This document shows positions 10,950 to 60,187 of a DNA stretch of 64,000 nt, piece by piece (positions within the stretch are counted from its first letter, which is position 1; every line of letters starts with the position of its first letter). The DNA is from a phage, in assembly GCA_011911785.1 (NCBI GenBank), contig GCA_011911785.1_4084.1, one strand, 5' to 3'. The notes beneath the pieces are model-generated. The model was not told the DNA's origin and did no database searches. It saw only the letters and a list, made by a program, of their open reading frames with translations. A program made the position numbers and the translations under genes.

Positions 10950-12047
10950 ATGAACTTAGCAATTCTTCTAATACCAAGTTTGATAGTTGTTCTAATCATG
11001 AAGTTCAAATACCATACTGCCATAACAACAAAGGAATTGCTAATTCATACTGGAATTTGCTTTCTTGCAGCGGTGTTGGTATTGGGAACATCATACTTGA
11101 TAAACTACAGCCAACTTCGTGATGTTGAAATTCTAAATGGTCAGGTTACAGAGAAATACAGCCAACGTGAGAACTGCACATCACAATCAAGTTCTTGTAA
11201 ACACTATACTTGGCATGAGCGTTGCTGGACTACCTATGATTCTAAAGGTCGCTCACAACGTGAATGTGAATCTTATAAGGTATTCGACTATCCGTATGAG
11301 ATTGATTGGTACGTTAAAAGCACTGTTGGTAAGTTTGAGATTGAAAGGGTCAATAGACAAGGAACACAAACTCCACCACGCTGGCAAGAAGTGAAAATTG
11401 GTGATTATGCAGCAGCAGAAAACACATACATAAATTATCTATTTGCAGATAAACACTCATTATTCAGTACTGAAGATTTGATTTCTATGTATGATAAAGA
11501 ATATCTGGAATCTTTACCTGAATATCCAAGTATTAGTGATTATTATAAAACACACCACGTTATTAATAAAACTGATTACGATGTGAGTGGGTATGATGAA
11601 TATTTACGTGAAGTGTTAAAAACATTAGGTGCACAAAAGCAAGTAAACATTCAAGTACTAGTATATGATTATCATGACGTGAATTTTGTTGATGCAGTAA
11701 CCTCAATCTGGCGTGGTGGCAAGAAGAACGATGTGATTATGTTCTTTGGTATCAGTAATGATGGTGTCGTTAAATCATTCAATAGTACGTCATTCGCTAA
11801 AGGTATGAATAATGAAGAATTGCATTCTAAAATGCGAATGGATGCGTTAAATGAAGTATTAACACTTGACTTACTTAAAGTTCAGGTTCATAATATACAG
11901 ACTAAGTTTGAACGTCTGTCGAATAAAGAGTTTGAATACATGGCAGTTAAAATGGAACCACGAAAAGATGTTATGATTGCTGCATCTTTGATTCTCATTG
12001 TACTGTCGATTGTTGTTGGTCTTTATATGAAGGAAAATAATGTATGA
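10950..12047 (+). CDS. membrane protein (N- and C-terminal hydrophobic segments)
   Basis: Start refined to ATG 10950; hydrophobic stretches at both ends. Confidence 0.55.
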   Translation: MNLAILLIPSLIVVLIMKFKYHTAITTKELLIHTGICFLAAVLVLGTSYLINYSQLRDVEILNGQVTEKYSQRENCTSQSSSCKHYTWHERCWTTYDSKGRSQRECESYKVFDYPYEIDWYVKSTVGKFEIERVNRQGTQTPPRWQEVKIGDYAAAENTYINYLFADKHSLFSTEDLISMYDKEYLESLPEYPSISDYYKTHHVINKTDYDVSGYDEYLREVLKTLGAQKQVNIQVLVYDYHDVNFVDAVTSIWRGGKKNDVIMFFGISNDGVVKSFNSTSFAKGMNNEELHSKMRMDALNEVLTLDLLKVQVHNIQTKFERLSNKEFEYMAVKMEPRKDVMIAASLILIVLSIVVGLYMKENNV

Positions 12048-12598
12048 ATAAGCCTCTGATTTTGTTGGTTGGTGTGTTGGTGATTTTTGTTATTGGTGTG
12101 TTTGCAACTGTAAGTATGTATAGTTCAGCACATGATAGTGCAGTGAATTTTGAAGGTAATATTAAAAAGTACTACGATGCATCTGAAAGTCAACTGAGCA
12201 GTTATACACTAACTATTCAAGAAAAGGTTCAAGTATCGGACAAATATAAGGATGCATTGAAAGAGACAATCGAAGCGTACTTTAAGGGACGTGAAGGAGT
12301 TGATCAGAAATTTGTAATGTCACAGATTCAACAACAAGTTCCAAATCTTGATCCTAAGATTTATCAAGAGTTGATGGTTACAATTGATGCAGGGCGTGAG
12401 AAGTTCAATAACTTGCAGAAAATGAAAATTGAACAATGTACTGATTATGAGAAATTCCGTAAAGGTTTCTGGAACTCAAAAATCATCGATTCTAATACAT
12501 TCCCAAGTAAAGATATTGAACATTTGTGTACTGTTGTTTCTGATACTCGCACTAAGAAAGCAATGGAAACTGGTATTCAGGAAGTAATTAAATTGTAA
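12044..12598 (+). CDS. membrane-anchored protein (184 aa)
   Basis: Single N-terminal hydrophobic helix; ATGA overlap with upstream gene. Confidence 0.55.
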   Translation: MNKPLILLVGVLVIFVIGVFATVSMYSSAHDSAVNFEGNIKKYYDASESQLSSYTLTIQEKVQVSDKYKDALKETIEAYFKGREGVDQKFVMSQIQQQVPNLDPKIYQELMVTIDAGREKFNNLQKMKIEQCTDYEKFRKGFWNSKIIDSNTFPSKDIEHLCTVVSDTRTKKAMETGIQEVIKL

Positions 12599-12603
12599 GT
12601 ATT

Positions 12604-12633
12604 TGGGGAGTACATTATTGTACTCCCTTTTTA
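12604..12633 (+). terminator. intrinsic terminator
   Basis: GGGAGTACA-loop-TGTACTCCC hairpin followed by TTTTT. Confidence 0.65.
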
Positions 12634-12647
12634 ATAGGATATAAACT

Positions 12648-13229
12648 ATGTTTTATAATGAAACTCTTAAGTTGTTCGAGCGTATAGCAGAAATCAAAAA
12701 GCGTGCATATGATAATATAATTCTTCCTTATAGTTTTGAATCAGATACTATAATTTTTAAAATGAAACATCATGCTCGTCATTATGAATTTATTTTAGGG
12801 ATAAAAGAACCTAAAATTGAATCCAATGTTCCAAATATATCATCATCTATCGCAGTTCCAAGCGGTGTAAATATTGCCCACGGTCATCCAATGACAATTG
12901 CGGCAACTTCATCCAATACGATTATTGAGCGTTATATTAAAGTTTGTACAACAACAGCTATGCAAAATATCATATCAGTTGAGTGGAGTGAACTACCAAG
13001 TAACTTCATTTACTTCACCAATAGTAATGGTACAACATCTGAGAAAGAATCTATGGGTAATAAGATTATGTCAGCTATGATTCTACATGAAAAAACGCTT
13101 ATCAATGGTGAAATATATTCATTAGAAGACAATCCAGATGCATTTATTAAAGACATTGAGGGTTCCAATAAATTTAGTATTTTAGAAGTATTAAATCTTG
13201 AAAAGGATTATAAACATGCAATACGATAA
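12648..13229 (+). CDS. hypothetical protein (193 aa)
   Basis: ORF following a terminator. Confidence 0.55.
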   Translation: MFYNETLKLFERIAEIKKRAYDNIILPYSFESDTIIFKMKHHARHYEFILGIKEPKIESNVPNISSSIAVPSGVNIAHGHPMTIAATSSNTIIERYIKVCTTTAMQNIISVEWSELPSNFIYFTNSNGTTSEKESMGNKIMSAMILHEKTLINGEIYSLEDNPDAFIKDIEGSNKFSILEVLNLEKDYKHAIR

Positions 13230-13746
13230 TAAAGATCTACCATATCTCCCCGATCTGGAAAGAGGTGTTAATGAGTTCGTTCAGGTAATATCAGAGTGGG
13301 ATGTATCAGTATTTTCATATAATCGTAAGAAGGATTTCGAATATAAAGGCGTTCATTTTTTTATCACGGATAATTTAATAACCCTGCAATCTAAAATAGA
13401 AATGTTTGGATCTTTAGACCCCATATATCGTCAGCCATATTCTGATCCATACAAAGAAAATATTGCAAGAATGTTTGAAAATAGAACAAGACAATATACC
13501 CGAAATTATTTTGGTACTTTCGATTTCACTAAAAAAGGTACATTGGTTGGATATACCATATCAACAGAATCTTTCACATCTATACATAGTGTGATTCTTG
13601 GTGAGAAAAAAATGTTAGTTAATAATGAAGATTGGTTAGACCGTGAAAATTTTCATGAATATGCATTTCAGCATTCTGTAGCAAATCCAAAAGAACCATT
13701 TGATGTGTTCTTTATTTCTAATGTATTAAGAATGTTAGGAGAATAA
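13216..13746 (+). CDS. hypothetical protein (about 176 aa)
   Basis: Start refined to ATG 13216 with RBS aaaggattataaacATG. Confidence 0.5.
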   Translation: MQYDNKDLPYLPDLERGVNEFVQVISEWDVSVFSYNRKKDFEYKGVHFFITDNLITLQSKIEMFGSLDPIYRQPYSDPYKENIARMFENRTRQYTRNYFGTFDFTKKGTLVGYTISTESFTSIHSVILGEKKMLVNNEDWLDRENFHEYAFQHSVANPKEPFDVFFISNVLRMLGE

Positions 13747-13747
13747 T

Positions 13748-14101
13748 ATGTTGATTTACTTATGTGTGCTTTTGGTTTCATTGGTTGTAGCAGTATTAGT
13801 ACTGAAAACTATTTCAACTATTCGTTCTAAAATTGATAAACATCAAGAAAATTCTGTTATCGATTTAGTTATGGATTTTCCTAAAATCAGTGCAGCCGTT
13901 GTTTTTGTTGTTATGTTATTTGGAACATACTGCGTAAAAGGCTACCTCTATGGTATGTATGATTGTAGCGTTCGCTCATATTCACAAGGTGTCGAAACTG
14001 ACTATAGCTGGTACTATGGTAAGTGTCGTTTTAAAAATGAGCATGGTATTTGGGTAGATTTTGATAAACTACGCGGAACACCATCAGGTGATGAAGAATA
14101 A
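13748..14101 (+). CDS. small membrane protein (117 aa)
   Basis: RBS ttaggagaataatATG; two hydrophobic segments. Confidence 0.55.
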   Translation: MLIYLCVLLVSLVVAVLVLKTISTIRSKIDKHQENSVIDLVMDFPKISAAVVFVVMLFGTYCVKGYLYGMYDCSVRSYSQGVETDYSWYYGKCRFKNEHGIWVDFDKLRGTPSGDEE

Positions 14102-14595
14102 TGTTTGAATTTCCTGATGAACAACCAAAAAACTACATTGACTGTACTGAAGATGGATACACGCATATCAATATCTACAGTAAAGGGAAAACTAAGCTAG
14201 GGAGAGATTTATCTAATTTTTCTCCCCATAGCTTTACACTAGAACCATATGGATGGTTTCCTTCGGTTGAGTCTTTTTATTTCTGGTTCCTCACTGGACA
14301 ACAGCATGAAGAACTTAGAAAGGTATCAGGAGCCGCAGCGAAAGCCGCTGCAAACAAATATATGCATGACCGTATAGAGATGACACCTGAGCGATTAAAT
14401 GTAATCCAGGATGCGATATGTGCTAAAATAATGCAGAATCCTGAACTTGCTGAACGATTGCGTAAAAGTACTCTGAAGTTTGAGCATTATTATTTGTATG
14501 GTGGTAAGATTATTGATGTTAGTGATGACCACCGTTGGTTTGTTCAGACCTTTGAGGATATCAGAACAGTACTGAAGGAGATGAATAATGGATAA
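14101..14595 (+). CDS. NADAR-domain protein (YbiA-like)
   Basis: SNF...F...S.E..Y core and C-terminal KF..ELAERL..EHY pattern resembling E. coli YbiA. Confidence 0.55.
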   Translation: MFEFPDEQPKNYIDCTEDGYTHINIYSKGKTKLGRDLSNFSPHSFTLEPYGWFPSVESFYFWFLTGQQHEELRKVSGAAAKAAANKYMHDRIEMTPERLNVIQDAICAKIMQNPELAERLRKSTLKFEHYYLYGGKIIDVSDDHRWFVQTFEDIRTVLKEMNNG

Positions 14596-14863
14596 AGTGA
14601 AAATTTGTTGTCTTGAATGTGAGATGTTTGTCACTCCGTCTGATACAATGTTGACAATAGAGGAACAAGTCTTTCCATTAAGAGGTGGCTATATAAAATT
14701 ACCAACACCATTTTATAGTACATCTTGTTCAATATGTGGTAATGAACTTGTTCTTCATGAGTTGAATCACGTTAATATTATGGTTGTAAATGCAATTAGT
14801 TCGTATGCAAAAGAATTGGTTAGAAATGACAGTTCATTTGCACATTTATGGGGTTTCAACTGA
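14588..14863 (+). CDS. zinc-ribbon small protein
   Basis: Two CxxC pairs (CCLECEM / CSICGNE). Confidence 0.5.
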   Translation: MDKVKICCLECEMFVTPSDTMLTIEEQVFPLRGGYIKLPTPFYSTSCSICGNELVLHELNHVNIMVVNAISSYAKELVRNDSSFAHLWGFN

Positions 14864-14864
14864 T

Positions 14865-15137
14865 ATGAATCATTCAAGAACTTGTTGGATATGTTACAAT
14901 AAGGATGTAGATCATACTCTTGAACTTGAATATATGGAGATGAACTATGCAACAGACGTAAGATCATTTTCTGCTGGTCGTGTTATAATAAAAACACCAC
15001 AATATCAGTGTTTGTGTTCAGTGTGTGGTGGGAATGGTGTATATCGCAATGAGGTTCAAATGGTAAATGATGCTATTGAGCTTTATTTTGGACAATATGT
15101 TTTGGATTTATATAAAAATGAACAAACTAACATTTGA
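14865..15137 (+). CDS. zinc-ribbon small protein (paralog of 14588..14863)
   Basis: Start refined to ATG 14865; CWIC / CSVCGGN pairs. Confidence 0.5.
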   Translation: MNHSRTCWICYNKDVDHTLELEYMEMNYATDVRSFSAGRVIIKTPQYQCLCSVCGGNGVYRNEVQMVNDAIELYFGQYVLDLYKNEQTNI

Positions 15138-15348
15138 TGCAACCCCAATAAATGAACTTTTAGTGCCCAGTGAAGGAAGCACTGTTAAAATGAACATGTA
15201 CTGGATTGTCAAAGATGGAAATGTATTCAGACATAAAATAACAAAAGTATGGCAATGTAACAAAAATGAAAGTATTGTTAAGATGATAGCTAATACTGTA
15301 GATGGTGCTGAAGTTGTTTTTATGCCGTATGCATATATTAAGGAATAA
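15118..15348 (+). CDS. hypothetical protein (76 aa)
   Basis: Start refined to ATG 15118. Confidence 0.45.
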   Translation: MNKLTFDATPINELLVPSEGSTVKMNMYWIVKDGNVFRHKITKVWQCNKNESIVKMIANTVDGAEVVFMPYAYIKE

Positions 15349-15350
15349 AC

Positions 15351-15527
15351 ATGAAAAAAGAGTTGACAATATTCGTCATTCCAACTATAATGTTGATATT
15401 GGCTCTGGTGTTCCCACAATCACATGTGGTTATGCTTAACATCATAGAACTAATTTTATTGGTAATACACTGTATTGTCTGTTACTATTACATTAACAGT
15501 AATGAGGATCGTGATGAAGTATTATAA
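15351..15527 (+). CDS. possible small hydrophobic protein (58 aa)
   Basis: Untracked ORF with RBS aggaataaacATG; two predicted hydrophobic helices; overlaps a promoter-like motif. Confidence 0.3.
   Translation: MKKELTIFVIPTIMLILALVFPQSHVVMLNIIELILLVIHCIVCYYYINSNEDRDEVL
15363..15391 (+). promoter_or_regulatory. sigma70-like promoter (possibly internal)
   Basis: TTGACA, 17 nt, TATAAT. Confidence 0.45.
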
Positions 15528-15936
15528 AATTCGTATCATTACCAGTTCAGGGGCATCAGCGTGGATTTTTTATGATCTTCCAGATTCATATACCATCGAT
15601 GATGTAAAAGATTTATACTACGAAGATAACAATTGGGTTTTTGATTTAGAATCCAAAAGTGTAGAGATTGATGAGATTACTGAACAAGAATACAAGATTG
15701 GCACACAAGCTATGAAGTACTTTGAACGTAATCTTAAAATGTTACAGGAAAATGTGTTCCCTGTAAAAGAATGGGCAATTCTCCTTGCTAATTCCAATAA
15801 ACCTGTTAGAATTGGTTATCCAAACTTTCATATGGTATATCGTATGAATGAAAATCGTGAATTGAGTTATCAATTTGATTACGATGCTGCTAAGTTTGGT
15901 GTTCTGAAATCGTTTGAAAAGGCATATCCAGTATGA
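15514..15936 (+). CDS. hypothetical protein (140 aa)
   Basis: Start refined to ATG 15514 with RBS aatgaggatcgtgATG. Confidence 0.55.
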   Translation: MKYYKIRIITSSGASAWIFYDLPDSYTIDDVKDLYYEDNNWVFDLESKSVEIDEITEQEYKIGTQAMKYFERNLKMLQENVFPVKEWAILLANSNKPVRIGYPNFHMVYRMNENRELSYQFDYDAAKFGVLKSFEKAYPV

Positions 15937-16268
15937 GTAAAGATAGCAAAGAGTTTATGTTGCGTTGTACTTGTGGTGATAAAAATGAACATTGTGTTCA
16001 CATTGCACAATTTGACTTGACAGAAGAACACGGTGATGATAAACTTGGTCAATGTACAGTCAGTATGCGTTTGAATCCTTTTCTTAAATGGTACAAGCGT
16101 GTATGGGTTGCAGTGAAGTATGTTTTTGGTCGCAATGACTTTCATTACGTAGAAGCTGAAATTGATGTTGACATTCTTAAAGAAGTTGTGTTACAATTAG
16201 ATGATACACGAACTGATGAGGAAAAGAAAGACGCACGAAATAAACGTAGTGATGTGAAGGTTTTATGA
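15933..16268 (+). CDS. hypothetical Cys/His-rich protein (111 aa)
   Basis: CTCGDKNEHCVH motif; ATGA overlap. Confidence 0.5.
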   Translation: MSKDSKEFMLRCTCGDKNEHCVHIAQFDLTEEHGDDKLGQCTVSMRLNPFLKWYKRVWVAVKYVFGRNDFHYVEAEIDVDILKEVVLQLDDTRTDEEKKDARNKRSDVKVL

Positions 16269-16459
16269 ACGTCGAGTTGATTGAAAAAAAGTACTGTACA
16301 AATTGCAATACAGCGTATACAATACAAGGTATGTTAGTTTGTACAACATGTCAGGCAACAGAAACAGCAACATTTTTGGTTGATGACCGATTCAGTGATT
16401 TGAAACAATTCAAAGCTAATCGCAATCTCCGTAACTTTAGTGATATGAATAAGGAATGA
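16265..16459 (+). CDS. zinc-ribbon small protein (64 aa)
   Basis: CTNCNTAY...CTTCQ two CxxC pairs. Confidence 0.5.
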   Translation: MNVELIEKKYCTNCNTAYTIQGMLVCTTCQATETATFLVDDRFSDLKQFKANRNLRNFSDMNKE

Positions 16460-16893
16460 ATATGAATCTTGAACAAGTAATCCGTAACAACCCATTCTTC
16501 GCAGAAAACCCTTCTCGTGTAATTGAAGCGATTAAAGTTGAAGAGCTAATGATTACCGTCAAATATAAAGAAGAAGGTGATGAAATTAGTAGCGTAGTAT
16601 GTGCTCTTCGTGCACCTTTCCGTAAAGAAGCAGCTAAGAAACCAGCATATGTACTATCTATCTGCTTGGGTTGTGTAGTTAAACTGGTTGTTGATGAAAA
16701 TAGTTTCAACATCAAGGTTGCACCAACTAATGATGATGAGAATGTTGATCTCAACTTTGATGGTGGGTTGCCAGAAGAAGAATTCTTCCAACAGTCACTT
16801 GTTGTAGATTTCCGTTCAGTAACTTATGACCATATCAAACTAATCAATGAAATGGTTGATATCGTCGCTAAGTTCGAAGAAGAAACCGCATAA
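16456..16893 (+). CDS. EEYFQ-motif family protein (family A)
   Basis: C-terminal PEEEFFQQSLVVDF...YDHIKLINEMV. Confidence 0.65.
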   Translation: MNMNLEQVIRNNPFFAENPSRVIEAIKVEELMITVKYKEEGDEISSVVCALRAPFRKEAAKKPAYVLSICLGCVVKLVVDENSFNIKVAPTNDDENVDLNFDGGLPEEEFFQQSLVVDFRSVTYDHIKLINEMVDIVAKFEEETA

Positions 16894-16904
16894 TATAAAA
16901 AGAA

Positions 16905-16938
16905 ATAAGGCTCTCAATCGGGAGCCTTATATTCATTT
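16905..16938 (+). terminator. putative intrinsic terminator
   Basis: AGGCTCTC-loop-GGGAGCCT hairpin then T-rich. Confidence 0.5.
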
Positions 16939-16970
16939 GTTAAATAAGACAAAGTAAAGGAGTACTTAAT

Positions 16971-17522
16971 ATGATCGAACAAATTCAAAAATTCACGAAC
17001 CAAATTGTAAATTTCCTAGCAGATAAAGAAGGATTCAGTACTGAAGTTACACATCACGGTGTTAACCTTAACGTTACTGCACCAAGCGGTGATGTAACGT
17101 CATATGACATGTATGAGTTATTGCTTTATACAATGGCAGTACGCAAAATAGGTTCTGATATAGAGCTAAACATCAATACTGATGACAAAGGGAACAATAT
17201 TTTTGCTATTAATACGGATGCTAAACTTGATGTAATTGCAGAAATTCAAAAAATTAACGAGTCATTTATTAATTTCCAACATGATACGATACAATCCGTT
17301 TTTATTGGTCATCAAACATCTGAAAGTGTTTGCCCTTTTTGTGTAATGACTCTCTATAAGAATGGTAATTGGATGCGTCATGATTTGGCTAAAGCTGAAG
17401 TTCTTTATGCCATTACACATGGTATGAAACTTGAACTAGATGACAGTGCTTTTGTCTTTAAGAAACTAAGAAAATTAACACTAGATGTTCAGACTAAATT
17501 AAAAGAACTTAATGATAAATAA
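16971..17522 (+). CDS. hypothetical protein (183 aa)
   Basis: RBS aaaggagtacttaatATG. Confidence 0.6.
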   Translation: MIEQIQKFTNQIVNFLADKEGFSTEVTHHGVNLNVTAPSGDVTSYDMYELLLYTMAVRKIGSDIELNINTDDKGNNIFAINTDAKLDVIAEIQKINESFINFQHDTIQSVFIGHQTSESVCPFCVMTLYKNGNWMRHDLAKAEVLYAITHGMKLELDDSAFVFKKLRKLTLDVQTKLKELNDK

Positions 17523-17670: not shown

Positions 17671-18066
17671 ATGTTAGGTAGTAGAATAGGCAGCATCGTC
17701 ACAATTAAACTTTCTTATTATCTAAATGATTTTTCAAAGATCGATTTATCAAAATATCAGCAATCATCATTCTATTATGAATCATCTGAGCATAAATTTT
17801 CTATCAGCAAAGAACCGGTAAAACTAAAGTATCAGGGGGTTGCAGAAAAGAATGAATTCGTGTATGATTATGGTATGGACAAAATTGTATTCACTGAATA
17901 TACTAAGGGTACAAGACCTACATGGAAAGCGGATTATCATAGAAAATCATTCATCAATATACATAAGTATCTTGACGAAGAGCATTACTTTCAACAGTTG
18001 CTTTTGGAGGATTTACCATTCACTATTGATGATCTAAAAACATTATTTAAGTACTATGCGATATAG
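17671..18066 (+). CDS. EEYFQ-motif family protein (family A)
   Basis: C-terminal DEEHYFQQLLLEDLPFTIDDLKTLF. Confidence 0.6.
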   Translation: MLGSRIGSIVTIKLSYYLNDFSKIDLSKYQQSSFYYESSEHKFSISKEPVKLKYQGVAEKNEFVYDYGMDKIVFTEYTKGTRPTWKADYHRKSFINIHKYLDEEHYFQQLLLEDLPFTIDDLKTLFKYYAI

Positions 18067-18083
18067 TACTAAAGGAGATACAT

Positions 18084-18518
18084 ATGATTATATCATTCAA
18101 AAAAGTACTAAAATATTTCCAAAATAATAAACTTAAAGATATGAAAGTACGTGTCAATTTCTTTGCTAAAAGTGTGTGGTTTTGTACAGAGGATGAAATT
18201 AAGGTTAATGTAAGATTAACTGATTCATATGAAATAATTCGCCTGTACGCAACCATTGATGGTGTGGATACCAAGATATCATACATTTCAACGAGTGGTA
18301 CGTTGATCATGAGTACGCGAGAAAATGAAACTGATACATTCAATGAAATTAAGATAGAAAACATCCATGAAATCACATCTGAAGAGATACTATTTCAACG
18401 TTCACTTGTTGACAATGTACTAGATTTAACATATGATAATATCATACTAATTCACAAACTGCATGATGAGGCAAAAGCGTTTGCTCTAACCAAATTCGGA
18501 GAATTGGATGATAAGTGA
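18084..18518 (+). CDS. EEYFQ-motif family protein (family A)
   Basis: C-terminal TSEEILFQRSLVDNVLDLTYDNIILI; RBS aaggagatacatATG. Confidence 0.65.
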   Translation: MIISFKKVLKYFQNNKLKDMKVRVNFFAKSVWFCTEDEIKVNVRLTDSYEIIRLYATIDGVDTKISYISTSGTLIMSTRENETDTFNEIKIENIHEITSEEILFQRSLVDNVLDLTYDNIILIHKLHDEAKAFALTKFGELDDK

Positions 18519-31464: not shown

Positions 31465-32464
<1,000 letters not shown>

Positions 32465-32474
32465 TTAAAAAAAG

Positions 32475-33412
<938 letters not shown>

Positions 33413-33429
33413 CTGTAGTATTCAGTACT

Positions 33430-33621
<192 letters not shown>

Positions 33622-33622
33622 A

Positions 33623-33680
<58 letters not shown>

Positions 33681-33685
33681 CAATC

Positions 33686-33841
<156 letters not shown>

Positions 33842-33870
33842 CAAAAACGAAATTACAATAGGAAATTAAA

Positions 33871-34056
33871 ATGCAACTTTTAATTCTTTCAATATTGTAT
33901 ATTATTATAATGGTTCCGATATCAATACGTTTAATTACAGTTGAACGATTTTTATCGAAACATGGAAATAGGTCTATGATCTTTGTACCAATCGGTCTGA
34001 TATTGTTTGGTATATTTGCATTTATAATGGGAATTAACGCTACATTCATTTCATAG
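33871..34056 (+). CDS. small membrane protein (61 aa)
   Basis: ORF with two hydrophobic segments downstream of tRNA-Asn. Confidence 0.45.
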   Translation: MQLLILSILYIIIMVPISIRLITVERFLSKHGNRSMIFVPIGLILFGIFAFIMGINATFIS

Positions 34057-34065
34057 GAAACAAAT

Positions 34066-34547
<482 letters not shown>

Positions 34548-34554
34548 AAGAACG

Positions 34555-34587
<33 letters not shown>

Positions 34588-34588
34588 C

Positions 34589-34644
<56 letters not shown>

Positions 34645-34645
34645 T

Positions 34646-34879
<234 letters not shown>

Positions 34880-34882
34880 TGT

Positions 34883-35227
<345 letters not shown>

Positions 35228-55359: not shown

Positions 55360-55601
55360 TGTTAATTTTATACGTTGTACTGATTTTATTAGTTAACTTT
55401 TCTCCAACTATTTTAACTTTAGTATGGGGTAAATTTTATGATGCTGTAAAAGTATTTCTCTTGAATACTGCATGGGTATTGGTAAGTCTGACTCTTTATT
55501 GGTCTACTGATTGGATGATGATTGTGAGTCATATACTACTATATATTTCATTCCTAATGTTGTTCCAAGAAAAAGAAGTACTTGACAAACTTGAAGGTTA
55601 G
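55359..55601 (+). CDS. small membrane protein (80 aa)
   Basis: Start refined to ATG 55359; multiple hydrophobic helices. Confidence 0.5.
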   Translation: MLILYVVLILLVNFSPTILTLVWGKFYDAVKVFLLNTAWVLVSLTLYWSTDWMMIVSHILLYISFLMLFQEKEVLDKLEG

Positions 55602-55610
55602 ACCTATAAT
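55582..55610 (+). promoter_or_regulatory. sigma70-like promoter
   Basis: TTGACA, 17 nt, TATAAT. Confidence 0.6.
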
Positions 55611-55633: not shown

Positions 55634-55894
55634 ATGGCAGTAGGGTTTGGTTCACCAGATAACCACCAAGAAACGATACAAGCAACTATTGATAATGCTA
55701 TTGACTTTGCTCGCTCAAATCTGTATAGTGGTGAGTCTGAAGAGTACTGCATCGACTGTGACTGTGAGATACCAGAGAAGCGGAGGTTAGTACTGAAGGG
55801 TGTAAAACGATGTGTTCAGTGTCAATCAAAGGTTGACAAGGTATATCAAGAGCGTTATAATAGACGTGGAAGTAAAGACAGCCAACTCCGTTAA
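55634..55894 (+). CDS. TraR/DksA-family C4 zinc-finger protein
   Basis: CIDCDCEIPEKRRLVLKGVKRCVQCQ matches the C4 finger pattern of TraR/DksA proteins. Confidence 0.55.
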   Translation: MAVGFGSPDNHQETIQATIDNAIDFARSNLYSGESEEYCIDCDCEIPEKRRLVLKGVKRCVQCQSKVDKVYQERYNRRGSKDSQLR

Positions 55895-60140: not shown

Positions 60141-60187
60141 TATAAATATGACATAGAGGTAACATTTAATAATCTATGGAGAAAAAA

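What the first reader, a model, noticed from the sequence alone, without database searches (positions are those of the whole stretch)
14588..16459. Array of small zinc-ribbon proteins
Three or four adjacent small ORFs carry two CxxC pairs each (14588, 14865, 16265; 15933 is Cys/His-rich). Two are clear paralogs. Such proteins in phages often bind nucleic acid or host proteins.
Basis: seen in the sequence. Interest (0 to 1): 0.35.

Follow-up and report, generated by a model that had tools for sequence, protein, structure and literature searches.

The report
Small zinc-binding proteins in jumbo phage
Four small cysteine-rich genes in an early-looking gene block of the E. coli jumbo phage A4 belong to three unrelated, uncharacterised families of likely zinc-binding proteins, which is real but ordinary for a large phage.

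Summary
The window is Escherichia phage A4, a 355-kb Asteriusvirus.

It is not one array. There are three unrelated families, in two pairs separated by three other genes.

- **A (14588-14863) and B (14865-15137)** are old paralogs (20-28% identity) of a tiny family found only in jumbo phages. The AlphaFold model is confident (pLDDT 86): zinc knuckle, long beta-hairpin, zinc knuckle, long helix. This slot is hypervariable (26-33% identity between A4 and 121Q, against 62-84% for most neighbours). Both genes are still under purifying selection (dN/dS about 0.25).
- **C (15933-16268)** has invariant C12, C14, H20 and C41. Its homolog in phage CBB was detected in virions by mass spectrometry.
- **D (16265-16459)** has the cysteine pattern of a zinc ribbon (CxxC-11-CxxC) and a conserved tail. 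It follows C, overlapping its stop codon, in every relative that has it.

None reaches threshold for any Pfam or NCBIfam family. A weak, unconfirmed lead links A/B to the toxin-binding zinc domain of the antitoxin MqsA.

My best guess is early-expressed protein-binding modules aimed at host factors. Function is untested. Interest is low to moderate.

The parts
14101..14595 (+). Upstream neighbour (A4_101, 164 aa). It is probably a divergent NADAR-like protein. Its stop codon overlaps the start of ORF A by 8 nt.
   Evidence: PHROG 652, E=5e-43. TIGR02464, E=0.01 only. Annotated 'NADAR domain-containing protein' in phage Turkey5. No Pfam or PDB sequence hit. 79% identical to 121Q gp73.
14588..14863 (+). 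ORF A (A4_102, 91 aa). Divergent member of the A/B zinc-ribbon family, with C8xxC11 and C47xxC50.
   Evidence: Family profile E=3.6e-24. Orthologs in L006-L009 keep all four Cys, while C7 is not conserved. dN/dS 0.25 against L006. No tblastn hit outside A4 among 50,697 phage records.
14865..15137 (+). ORF B (A4_103, 90 aa). Paralog of A, with C7xxC10 and C51xxC54. It starts 1 nt after the stop codon of A.
   Evidence: Family profile E=4.9e-32. AlphaFold2 pLDDT 85.8, pTM 0.72, strands 17-29 and 39-51, helix 62-88. PHROG 35738, E=6.6e-4. dN/dS 0.27.
15118..15348 (+). Intervening conserved small gene (A4_104, 76 aa). Not cysteine-rich. It overlaps the end of B by 20 nt.
   Evidence: PHROG 13902, E=2.6e-30. 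64% identical to 121Q gp75.
15351..15527 (+). Intervening small hydrophobic ORF (A4_105, 58 aa).
   Evidence: Annotated CDS. Only weak hits to membrane-protein models.
15363..15391 (+). Perfect sigma-70 consensus promoter (TTGACA-17-TATAAT), upstream of the block that holds C and D.
   Evidence: 12 of 12 matches. One of 7 perfect sites on the + strand of the window, against 0.03 expected. Present at the same relative position in Turkey5, JNE01 and L006-L009.
15514..15936 (+). Conserved gene upstream of C (A4_106, 140 aa). Function unknown.
   Evidence: PHROG 15599, E=6.5e-58. 72% identical to 121Q gp77.
15933..16268 (+). ORF C (A4_107, 111 aa). Cys/His-rich N-terminus with invariant C12, C14, H20 and C41. 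Its homolog in phage CBB is virion-associated.
   Evidence: PHROG 12660 'virion structural protein', E=2e-50. Found in 66 phage records across Rak2-like jumbo phages. CBB_370 is marked as detected by virion ESI-MS/MS (PMC5259590). Invariant residues. The AlphaFold2 model is poor, pLDDT 45.
16265..16459 (+). ORF D (A4_108, 64 aa). Cys4 pattern of a zinc ribbon (C11xxC14-11-C26xxC29) plus a strongly conserved C-terminal segment, TFLVDDRF..L.Q.KANR. Its ATG overlaps the stop codon of C.
   Evidence: PHROG 27170, E=4e-37. Found in 47 phage records. Directly downstream of C in every fetched locus that holds it. Invariant Cys. Sub-threshold hits to generic zinc-ribbon models.
16462..16893 (+). Conserved downstream gene (A4_109, 143 aa). 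It completes the conserved C-D-109 trio.
   Evidence: PHROG 23322, E=3e-66. The same gene order is seen in the distant contig L011.
16905..16930 (+). Terminator-like hairpin that closes the gene block.
   Evidence: 11-bp stem followed by a T-rich tail.
12605..12628 (+). Terminator-like hairpin that opens the block. A promoter-like site follows at 12631-12659.

Best explanation
The region holds four real genes for small proteins held together by metal, from three unrelated families. They sit in a block of a Rak2-like jumbo phage (Escherichia phage A4) that is probably transcribed early.

**A and B.** They are ancient paralogs of a tiny phage-only family. Two CxxC knuckles, presumably binding one structural zinc, staple the ends of a long beta-hairpin, which is followed by a long C-terminal helix. 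This slot evolves about four times faster at the protein level than its neighbours and differs in copy number between relatives. I infer that these are small protein-binding modules made early in infection and aimed at a variable host target, either for host takeover or for countering defence.

**C.** It is a CxC-x5-H...C protein that is packaged in the virion in at least one relative.

**D.** It has the cysteine pattern of a small four-cysteine zinc ribbon, with a conserved C-terminal peptide, and is translationally coupled to C. It probably works with C or its neighbours.

**Shown:** the genes, conserved Cys/His ligands, paralogy, the fold of B, the fast evolution, the promoter context, and virion detection of the CBB homolog of C.

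**Inferred:** zinc binding, early timing, and every function.
For: - **Identity and gene models:**
- **Invariant ligands:**
- **Paralogy of A and B:**
- **Families unrelated to each other:**
- **Fold of B:** pLDDT 85.8, pTM 0.72.
- **Narrow distribution of A/B:** about a dozen clusters in 5.8 billion proteins and in 1.84 billion representatives, all short proteins. Every contig examined is from a jumbo phage or a syntenic relative.
- **Hypervariable slot:** 26-33% identity between A4 and 121Q, against 62-84% for most neighbours.
- **Still functional genes:** dN/dS 0.25-0.27, with dN 3-4 times that of the adjacent genes.
- **Variable copy number:** two copies in A4 and L006-L009, probably two in L011-L013 (the second only at E=4.7e-4), one in 121Q, Turkey5, JNE01, EcMJ and L014, and none within 5 kb of the NADAR-like gene or C in RaK2.
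- **Early context:** 7 perfect sigma-70 promoters against 0.03 expected. The T4-late-like motif TATAAATA occurs once against 10 expected. The CBB paper reads regions of short ORFs with RpoD-like promoters as early host-takeover genes (PMC5259590).
- **C in virions:**
- **C-D coupling and co-occurrence:**
Against: - No zinc measurement exists, and no binding partner is known.
- No significant match to any characterised family: Pfam, NCBIfam and PADLOC, PDB by sequence, PDB by fold.
- Fast evolution with dN/dS below 1 also fits relaxed constraint on a dispensable gene.
- Promoter and terminator calls are consensus matches only. No expression data were found.
- A virion protein (C) behind an early-type promoter is an awkward fit.
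- Its virion status rests on one mass-spectrometry study of a 44%-identical homolog, and the peptide count for that protein was not retrieved.
- The model of C is unreliable (pLDDT 45).
Confidence: 0.55

Rival explanations
1. A and B are orphan copies of the toxin-binding zinc domain of MqsA-type antitoxins (the YgiT-type zinc finger), without the DNA-binding HTH domain. The phage would use them to neutralise MqsR/RelE-like toxins of host toxin-antitoxin defence systems. They lie next to another possible orphan antitoxin, the NADAR-like protein.
For: - The published MqsA N-domain is two long twisted beta-strands buttressed by a five-turn helix, with loops held by zinc on C3, C6, C37 and C40. 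It is highly divergent apart from the Cys (12% identity), and it alone neutralises MqsR (PMC2791442).
- The model of B has the same order of elements.
- A 78-aa family member in contig L011, sitting in tandem with the clear member P0037, hits the MqsA family model TIGR03830 at E=2.7e-5.
- The same protein scores 18.4 bits on the YgiT finger model TIGR03831, against a cutoff of 20.2.
- Its four best PDB hits are all MqsA.
- It joins the A/B profile at hhalign probability 69%, E=4e-5.
- The ortholog of A (P0035) hits TIGR03830 at E=0.03.
- Phage NADAR proteins are published orphan-antitoxin counter-defences against DarTG1 (title and abstract of PMC11825919).
Against: - A, B, 121Q gp74 and four other members give no YgiT or MqsA hit at E up to 1-5.
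- The family profile does not find MqsA in the PDB.
- hhalign against MqsA-N puts the Cys in register, but at only 1-2.5% probability.
- Foldseek with the model of B returns no MqsA chain among the 50 of 53 PDB matches listed.
- The Cys-pair spacing is 35-40 residues, against 30 in MqsA.
- There is no toxin gene nearby.
- The NADAR neighbourhood is not obligatory. L011 has the family with no NADAR-like gene in the 7.7 kb fetched, and RaK2 has a NADAR-like gene with no A/B gene nearby.
Confidence: 0.12
2. The zinc ribbons (D above all, possibly A and B) are nucleic-acid-binding regulators. They would bind DNA, RNA or RNA polymerase to redirect transcription or translation early in infection.
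For: - Zinc ribbons are common in transcription and translation factors (general knowledge).
- D gives sub-threshold hits to the DZR, A2L and SprT-type ribbon models.
- The tail of D is conserved and basic (K50, R53).
- The same window encodes a genuine DksA/TraR-type zinc finger at 55634-55894, so this phage does use small zinc proteins that act on RNA polymerase.
Against: - No hit reaches any family threshold.
- A and B are not notably basic, and their surfaces change rapidly. That is unusual for proteins that recognise conserved nucleic-acid or polymerase targets.
- No HTH or other DNA-binding module is present.
Confidence: 0.18
3. C and D, and perhaps the neighbouring conserved genes, are structural or packaged virion components or their assembly helpers. 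The zinc sites would simply stabilise small particle proteins. On this reading the pair has nothing to do with A and B.
For: - The C homolog CBB_370 was detected in purified virions by ESI-MS/MS.
- The family is annotated 'virion structural protein' in many records.
- The order C, D, PHROG 23322 is conserved even in the distant contig L011.
- Another annotated virion protein (A4_97, 12044-12598) lies in the same block.
Against: - C lies far from any late-type promoter motif. TATAAATA is almost absent from the window, and C sits behind a consensus sigma-70 promoter.
- The text of the phAPEC6 virion proteomics paper does not mention the corresponding gene products. Its tables were not checked.
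- CBB and Serratia phage BF have C but no D within 2.5-5 kb of it.
Confidence: 0.25
4. The CxxC pairs are chance features of spurious or decaying ORFs.
For: None beyond the small size of the ORFs.
Against: - Every ORF has orthologs in which the Cys are invariant.
- dN/dS is 0.10-0.27.
- Starts and stops are tightly coupled.
- The fold prediction for B is confident.
Confidence: 0.01

Closest known systems
[quoted passage not shown]
   Same: - Cys4 site made of two CxxC pairs that flank a long two-stranded beta-sheet, followed by a long helix.
- Extreme sequence divergence, with only the Cys conserved.
- A small domain that stands alone and binds protein (PMC2791442).
- One distant family member nearly reaches the YgiT model threshold.
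   Different: - No HTH-XRE domain and no partner toxin gene.
- Cys-pair spacing of 35-40 residues against 30.
- ORFs A and B themselves, the family profile, and the Foldseek search all fail to detect MqsA.
Generic zinc ribbons (Pfam DZR PF12773, A2L_zn_ribbon PF08792, Zn_ribbon_4 PF13717)
   Same: D has CxxC-11-CxxC, the classic short zinc-ribbon spacing. It scores 11-16 bits against these models.
   Different: All scores are below the gathering thresholds (23-30 bits). The most conserved part of D is its non-ribbon C-terminal segment.
PHROG 12660 'virion structural protein' (121Q gp78, RaK2 ORF182, CBB_370)
   Same: C is a full-length member, E=2e-50. The CBB member was detected in virions.
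   Different: The family has no known fold or role. The putative CxC-H-C metal site does not seem to have been noted before.
DksA/TraR C4-type zinc finger (PF01258)
   Same: A small phage-encoded Cys4 protein from an early region. A true member is present elsewhere in this window, at 55634-55894.
   Different: A, B, C and D do not match this model.
Small phage zinc-ribbon proteins such as Lar (restriction alleviation) and YokU-like proteins
   Same: Proteins of these kinds appear among the weak BFVD structural neighbours of the model of B (ranks 3 and 9).
   Different: Foldseek probabilities are only 0.12-0.15 and TM scores 0.28. No sequence-model hit.

Membership tests
Zinc ribbon (generic fold class), applied to A, B and D | Two CxxC (or similar) knuckles whose four ligands are conserved across homologs | tested here: met
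   All four Cys are invariant in 15 A/B-family sequences and 8 D-family sequences. They are also kept in the more distant D homologs of L011 and phage Hallingskeid.
Zinc ribbon (generic fold class), applied to A, B and D | The knuckles sit at the ends of beta-hairpins | tested here: met
   For B, the AlphaFold2 model (pLDDT 85.8) has CxxC at 7-10 before strand 17-29, and C51xxC54 at the end of strand 39-51. D and A were not modelled.
Zinc ribbon (generic fold class), applied to A, B and D | Stoichiometric zinc bound by the four Cys | not testable with these tools
   Needs purified protein (ICP-MS or a PAR assay).
YgiT-type zinc finger / MqsA family (TIGR03831, TIGR03830) | Score at or above the curated cutoff of the family model | tested here: not met
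   A, B, 121Q gp74, Turkey5 and P0034/37/39/40 give no hit at E up to 1-5. P0035 hits TIGR03830 at E=0.03. The L011 78-aa member scores 18.4 bits against a cutoff of 20.2 (TIGR03831) and 24 bits against 61.8 (TIGR03830).
YgiT-type zinc finger / MqsA family (TIGR03831, TIGR03830) | [quoted passage not shown] | tested here: inconclusive
   The order of elements in the model of B matches the published description. Foldseek against the PDB listed no MqsA chain, and I could not superpose coordinates.
YgiT-type zinc finger / MqsA family (TIGR03831, TIGR03830) | C-terminal HTH-XRE DNA-binding domain (full-length MqsA) | tested here: not met
   The proteins are 73-97 aa (up to 110 with over-long start calls) and end after the single helix.
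YgiT-type zinc finger / MqsA family (TIGR03831, TIGR03830) | Adjacent MqsR/RelE-like toxin gene | tested here: not met
   The neighbours are the NADAR-like gene and PHROG 13902. Neither they nor A and B hit any PADLOC model.
PHROG 12660 (virion structural protein), applied to C | Full-length profile match | tested here: met
   E=2.1e-50, covering residues 1-111 of 112 profile positions.
PHROG 12660 (virion structural protein), applied to C | Presence in purified virions | not testable with these tools
   Shown only for the CBB homolog, by ESI-MS/MS. Not known for A4.
CSL zinc finger (PF05207), applied to C | Pfam gathering score | tested here: not met
   10.6 bits against a cutoff of 29.2. Only 3 of 14 members show any hit.
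DksA/TraR C4 zinc finger (PF01258), applied to A, B and D | Pfam gathering score | tested here: not met
   No hit. By contrast, window 55634-55894 scores 31.7 bits against a cutoff of 24.9.
Known anti-phage defence proteins (PADLOC-DB) | Any model hit | tested here: not met
   No hits at E up to 0.1 for A, B, C, D and four neighbours.

The most novel reading that the evidence does not exclude
A and B are hypervariable orphan 'antitoxin heads': stand-alone MqsA-N/YgiT-type zinc domains that the phage makes early to capture RelE/MqsR-type toxins released by host toxin-antitoxin defence. Together with the adjacent NADAR-like protein, a possible orphan DarG-type antitoxin, they would form a small island of borrowed antitoxins. 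The variants and copy number in that island would be swapped between related jumbo phages as host defences change.
Probability: 0.1. Interest if true: 0.6.

Novelty: new member of a known kind. Interest (0 to 1): 0.25.

Why it matters
Jumbo phages carry hundreds of unannotated small genes, and sorting them into families with a predicted fold is a useful first step.

The result that can be acted on is the A/B slot. It is a fast-evolving zinc-stapled hairpin-helix protein whose copy number varies, sitting next to a NADAR-like gene in an early region. That profile is typical of counter-defence or host-takeover factors, and the protein is small enough to test quickly.

If the MqsA-N resemblance proved real, it would add a new class to the short list of phage 'orphan antitoxin' counter-defences. 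Otherwise these are ordinary small zinc-binding phage proteins of unknown function.

Tried and rejected
1. **One homologous array.** Rejected. Profile-profile comparison of the A/B family against the D and C families gives probability below 3%.
2. **Membership of a curated family.** Pfam, NCBIfam, PHROGs and PADLOC scans of single proteins and of all aligned members gave only uncharacterised PHROGs at significance.
3. **Sequence relatives with solved structures.** None for the A/B, C, D or NADAR-like profiles.
4. **Fold search with the model of B.**
   - PDB: nothing better than E=1.3.
   - BFVD: one unnamed viral protein at E=3e-4 (TM 0.77, 24% identity), which I could not identify. All other hits were weak.
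5. **Structure of C.** The model was too poor to use (pLDDT 45), so no fold search was run on it.
6. **Obligate partnership between NADAR and A/B.** Weakened. L011 has the family with no NADAR-like gene in the fetched stretch, and RaK2 has a NADAR-like gene with no A/B gene nearby.
7. **Recent tandem duplication.** Rejected. A and B are 20% identical and do not group together in a neighbour-joining tree. The outer gene junctions do match those of the single-copy gene in 121Q.
8. **Positive selection.** Not shown. Gene-wide dN/dS is 0.25-0.27.
9. **More family members from IMG/VR.** The alignment was too divergent for the search for related loci, and a degenerate motif scan found nothing.
10. 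**tblastn against the phage collection.** The L011 78-aa protein and MqsA-N both gave no match.
11. **Other features in the region.** No RNA family, tRNA or meaningful DNA repeat lies in 14000-17000.
12. **More paralogs.** None of the A/B, C or D families elsewhere in the window.
13. **Long-protein hits.** Three long repetitive Cys-rich proteins in the representative search (P0036, P0038, P0041) match only a short part of the profile around the second CxxC motif. I treated them as spurious.
Full report
**Where we are.** The stretch 13700-17000 is 99.6% identical to Escherichia phage A4 (ON286972.1). A4 is a 355-kb Asteriusvirus jumbo phage of the Rak2-like group.
- A4_102 = A, 14588-14863
- A4_103 = B, 14865-15137
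- A4_107 = C, 15933-16268
- A4_108 = D, 16265-16459

**Checking the observation.**
- A has C8xxC11 and C47xxC50.
- B has C7xxC10 and C51xxC54.
- D has C11xxC14 and C26xxC29.
- C has 4 Cys and 4 His, 7 of them in the first 41 residues.
- Cys makes up 1.7% of the window's proteins. Only five proteins in the 64 kb carry two or more CxxC motifs.
- The genes are not one adjacent array. A-B and C-D are two pairs separated by three unrelated genes (15118-15936).
- If A and B count as one duplication event, having two of the four independent double-CxxC loci within eight genes is not surprising. My estimate is p about 0.4-0.5.

- A/B family: I collected the syntenic genes of 121Q, Turkey5, JNE01 and vB_Ec-M-J. 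I added 10 clusters from the 5.8-billion-protein search and five more short proteins from the exhaustive 1.84-billion-representative search.
- In the 15-sequence alignment the mean column identity is 37%, yet all four Cys and one Tyr are invariant and one Asn nearly so.
- In A, C8 is the conserved ligand and C7 is not.
- D family: the four Cys are invariant in 8 clusters and in distant homologs.
- C family: C12, C14, H20 and C41 are invariant across 14 clusters. C21 and H23 are not.

**Three families, not one.**
- A and B are paralogs. BLASTP gives 28% identity over 57 aa, E=1e-6. Both match the family profile strongly.
- They are only 20% identical on the trimmed family alignment and do not group together in a neighbour-joining tree. 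The duplication is therefore old, or one copy was acquired separately.
- The A/B family is not detectably related to D or C.
- No further paralogs of any of the three families exist in the window.

**The A/B family.**
- AlphaFold2 on B with a 10-sequence alignment gave a confident model (pLDDT 85.8, pTM 0.72).
- The order of elements is: N-terminal CxxC, strands 17-29 and 39-51, the second CxxC at 51-54, then a helix at 62-88.
- Foldseek found nothing significant in the PDB. In BFVD it found one unnamed viral protein at E=3e-4.
- Curated libraries gave nothing at threshold.

The family's evolutionary behaviour stands out:

| Comparison | A/B slot | Neighbouring genes |
|---|---|---|
| A4 vs 121Q, protein identity | 26-33%, partial alignment | 62-84% (most neighbours) |
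| A4 vs contig L006, dN | 0.17-0.20 | 0.03-0.06 (adjacent genes) |
| A4 vs contig L006, dN/dS | 0.25-0.27 | 0.03-0.10 (most neighbours) |

- Both genes are therefore functional but fast-evolving.
- Copy number varies. There are two copies in A4 and L006-L009, and probably two in the distant contigs L011-L013, where the second copy is only a weak profile match.
- There is one copy in 121Q, Turkey5, JNE01, EcMJ, phAPEC6 and L014. RaK2 has none near its NADAR-like gene or its C gene.
- The outer junctions of the A-B pair match those of the single 121Q gene. Both have an 8-nt overlap with the upstream gene and a 20-nt overlap with the downstream gene.

**A lead towards MqsA.**
- The published N-terminal domain of the antitoxin MqsA has two long twisted beta-strands buttressed by a five-turn helix. 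Zinc on C3, C6, C37 and C40 holds the loops.
- Its sequence is very divergent apart from the Cys, and the domain alone neutralises the toxin MqsR (PMC2791442). That is the same order of elements as in the model of B.
- In contig L011, the 78-aa gene directly upstream of the clear family member P0037 joins the A/B profile (hmmsearch E=4.7e-4; hhalign probability 69%).
- That protein hits the MqsA model TIGR03830 at E=2.7e-5. It scores 18.4 bits on the YgiT-finger model TIGR03831, against a cutoff of 20.2.
- Its four best PDB sequence hits are all MqsA, at E 0.18-0.8.
- The ortholog of A in L006 (P0035) hits TIGR03830 at E=0.03.

Against this lead:
- A, B and most members give no such hit.
- The family profile does not retrieve MqsA.
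- hhalign puts the Cys in register, but at only 2.5% probability.
- Foldseek did not list MqsA.

I therefore report the resemblance as 'may work like' and do not claim membership.

**C and D.**
- C is a full-length member of PHROG 12660. It occurs in 66 phage records across Asteriusvirus, Alcyoneusvirus, Eneladusvirus, Mimasvirus and others.
- Its CBB homolog, CBB_370, is listed as detected in purified virions by ESI-MS/MS.
- The model of C was unusable (pLDDT 45). A weak CSL-zinc-finger signal lies far below threshold.
- D occurs in 47 phage records. In every fetched locus that holds it, it lies directly downstream of C. In A4 its ATG overlaps the stop codon of C.
- The order C, D, PHROG 23322 persists in the distant contig L011.
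- The C-terminal segment of D (TFLVDDRF..L.Q.KANR) is as strongly conserved as its ribbon.
- CBB and Serratia phage BF have C but no D within the stretches fetched.

**Context.**
- All genes are on the + strand.
- Terminator-like hairpins at 12605-12628 and 16905-16930 bracket a 12-gene block.
- The window has seven perfect TTGACA-N17-TATAAT sites on the + strand, against 0.03 expected.
- One of them (15363-15391) lies upstream of the block that holds C and D. It is present at the same relative position in relatives.
- The T4-late-like motif TATAAATA occurs once, against 10 expected.
- The CBB paper interprets regions of short ORFs with RpoD-like promoters as early host-takeover genes.
- The gene upstream of A is probably a divergent NADAR. 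It scores TIGR02464 E=0.01, carries that annotation in Turkey5, and has an LSNF motif, which I recall as typical of NADAR proteins and did not check here.
- Phage NADAR proteins are published counter-defences against DarTG1 (PMC11825919).
- The NADAR-A/B adjacency is not universal.

**Verdict.**
- The 'array' is a coincidence of three unrelated families.
- My best mechanistic reading is inferred, not shown. A and B would be early, rapidly diversifying, zinc-stapled protein-binding modules aimed at host factors. C would be a packaged virion protein, with D as its coupled partner.
- All four belong to uncharacterised families of a familiar kind, so interest is low to moderate.
- The one reading that would raise interest is that A and B are orphan MqsA-type antitoxin heads. 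It has thin support, and I put it at about 10%.

Noticed in passing
window 55634-55894 (+), with a promoter at 55582-55610: An 86-aa protein with two CxxC pairs is a genuine DksA/TraR C4-type zinc finger (PF01258, 31.7 bits against a cutoff of 24.9). It sits directly behind a perfect sigma-70 consensus promoter. It is the only small zinc protein in the window that can be classified, and it lies outside the finding.
   Followed up: partly
window 8969, 10176, 15363, 46010, 50745, 55582, 55833 (+ strand): There are seven perfect TTGACA-N17-TATAAT promoters, all on the + strand, against 0.03 expected by chance. This suggests strong early transcription of this part of the genome by the host polymerase.
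   Followed up: partly
whole window; the only site is 60141-60148: The T4-late-promoter-like octamer TATAAATA occurs once, against about 10 expected. All 100 shuffles had at least one. This strong depletion fits avoidance of a functional late-promoter motif in a non-late region.
   Followed up: no
window 14101-14595: The gene upstream of ORF A is probably a divergent NADAR-domain protein. It matches PHROG 652 and TIGR02464 (E=0.01) and has an LSNF motif, but has no Pfam or PDB sequence hit. It is 79-80% conserved between Asteriusvirus phages. Phage NADARs are known anti-DarTG1 factors (PMC11825919).
   Followed up: partly
window 12648-13229, 13216-13746, 17671-18066, 18084-18518: Four more genes in the same conserved neighbourhood are hypervariable between A4 and 121Q (25-30% identity, against 62-84% for most neighbours). 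The region is a mosaic of conserved genes and fast-evolving slots.
   Followed up: no
L011 3216-3452 and 3449-3670 (Logan SRR28368733 contig); the same in L012 and L013: A distantly related phage contig also seems to carry a tandem pair of A/B-family genes. The upstream 78-aa copy is only a weak profile match. It is the member that most resembles the YgiT/MqsA zinc finger (TIGR03830 E=2.7e-5; best PDB hits all MqsA).
   Followed up: partly
window 16462-16893 and 18084-18518: These two proteins share a similar C-terminal segment and hit overlapping PHROGs (23322, 17453, 13866 and others). They are probably distant paralogs.
   Followed up: no
L006 4459-4662, L014 4761-4946, L008 2130-2300: Gene D is present in these metagenomic contigs but was not called by the source gene finder. 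In L014 it starts with GTG. Small zinc-ribbon genes like this are easily missed in automatic annotation. phAPEC6 also lacks an annotated CDS for it.
   Followed up: yes
window 31777-35217: A cluster of six tRNA genes: Ser-TGA, Gly-TCC, Ser-GCT, Met-CAT, Asn-GTT and Thr-TGT.
   Followed up: no
window 14790-15137: Some gene callers extend ORF B upstream to the ATG at 14790 (115 aa here; 109-110 aa in clusters P0008 and P0009). That start overlaps ORF A by 74 nt in another frame. The extension is absent from all other family members, so 14865 is the likely true start.
   Followed up: yes
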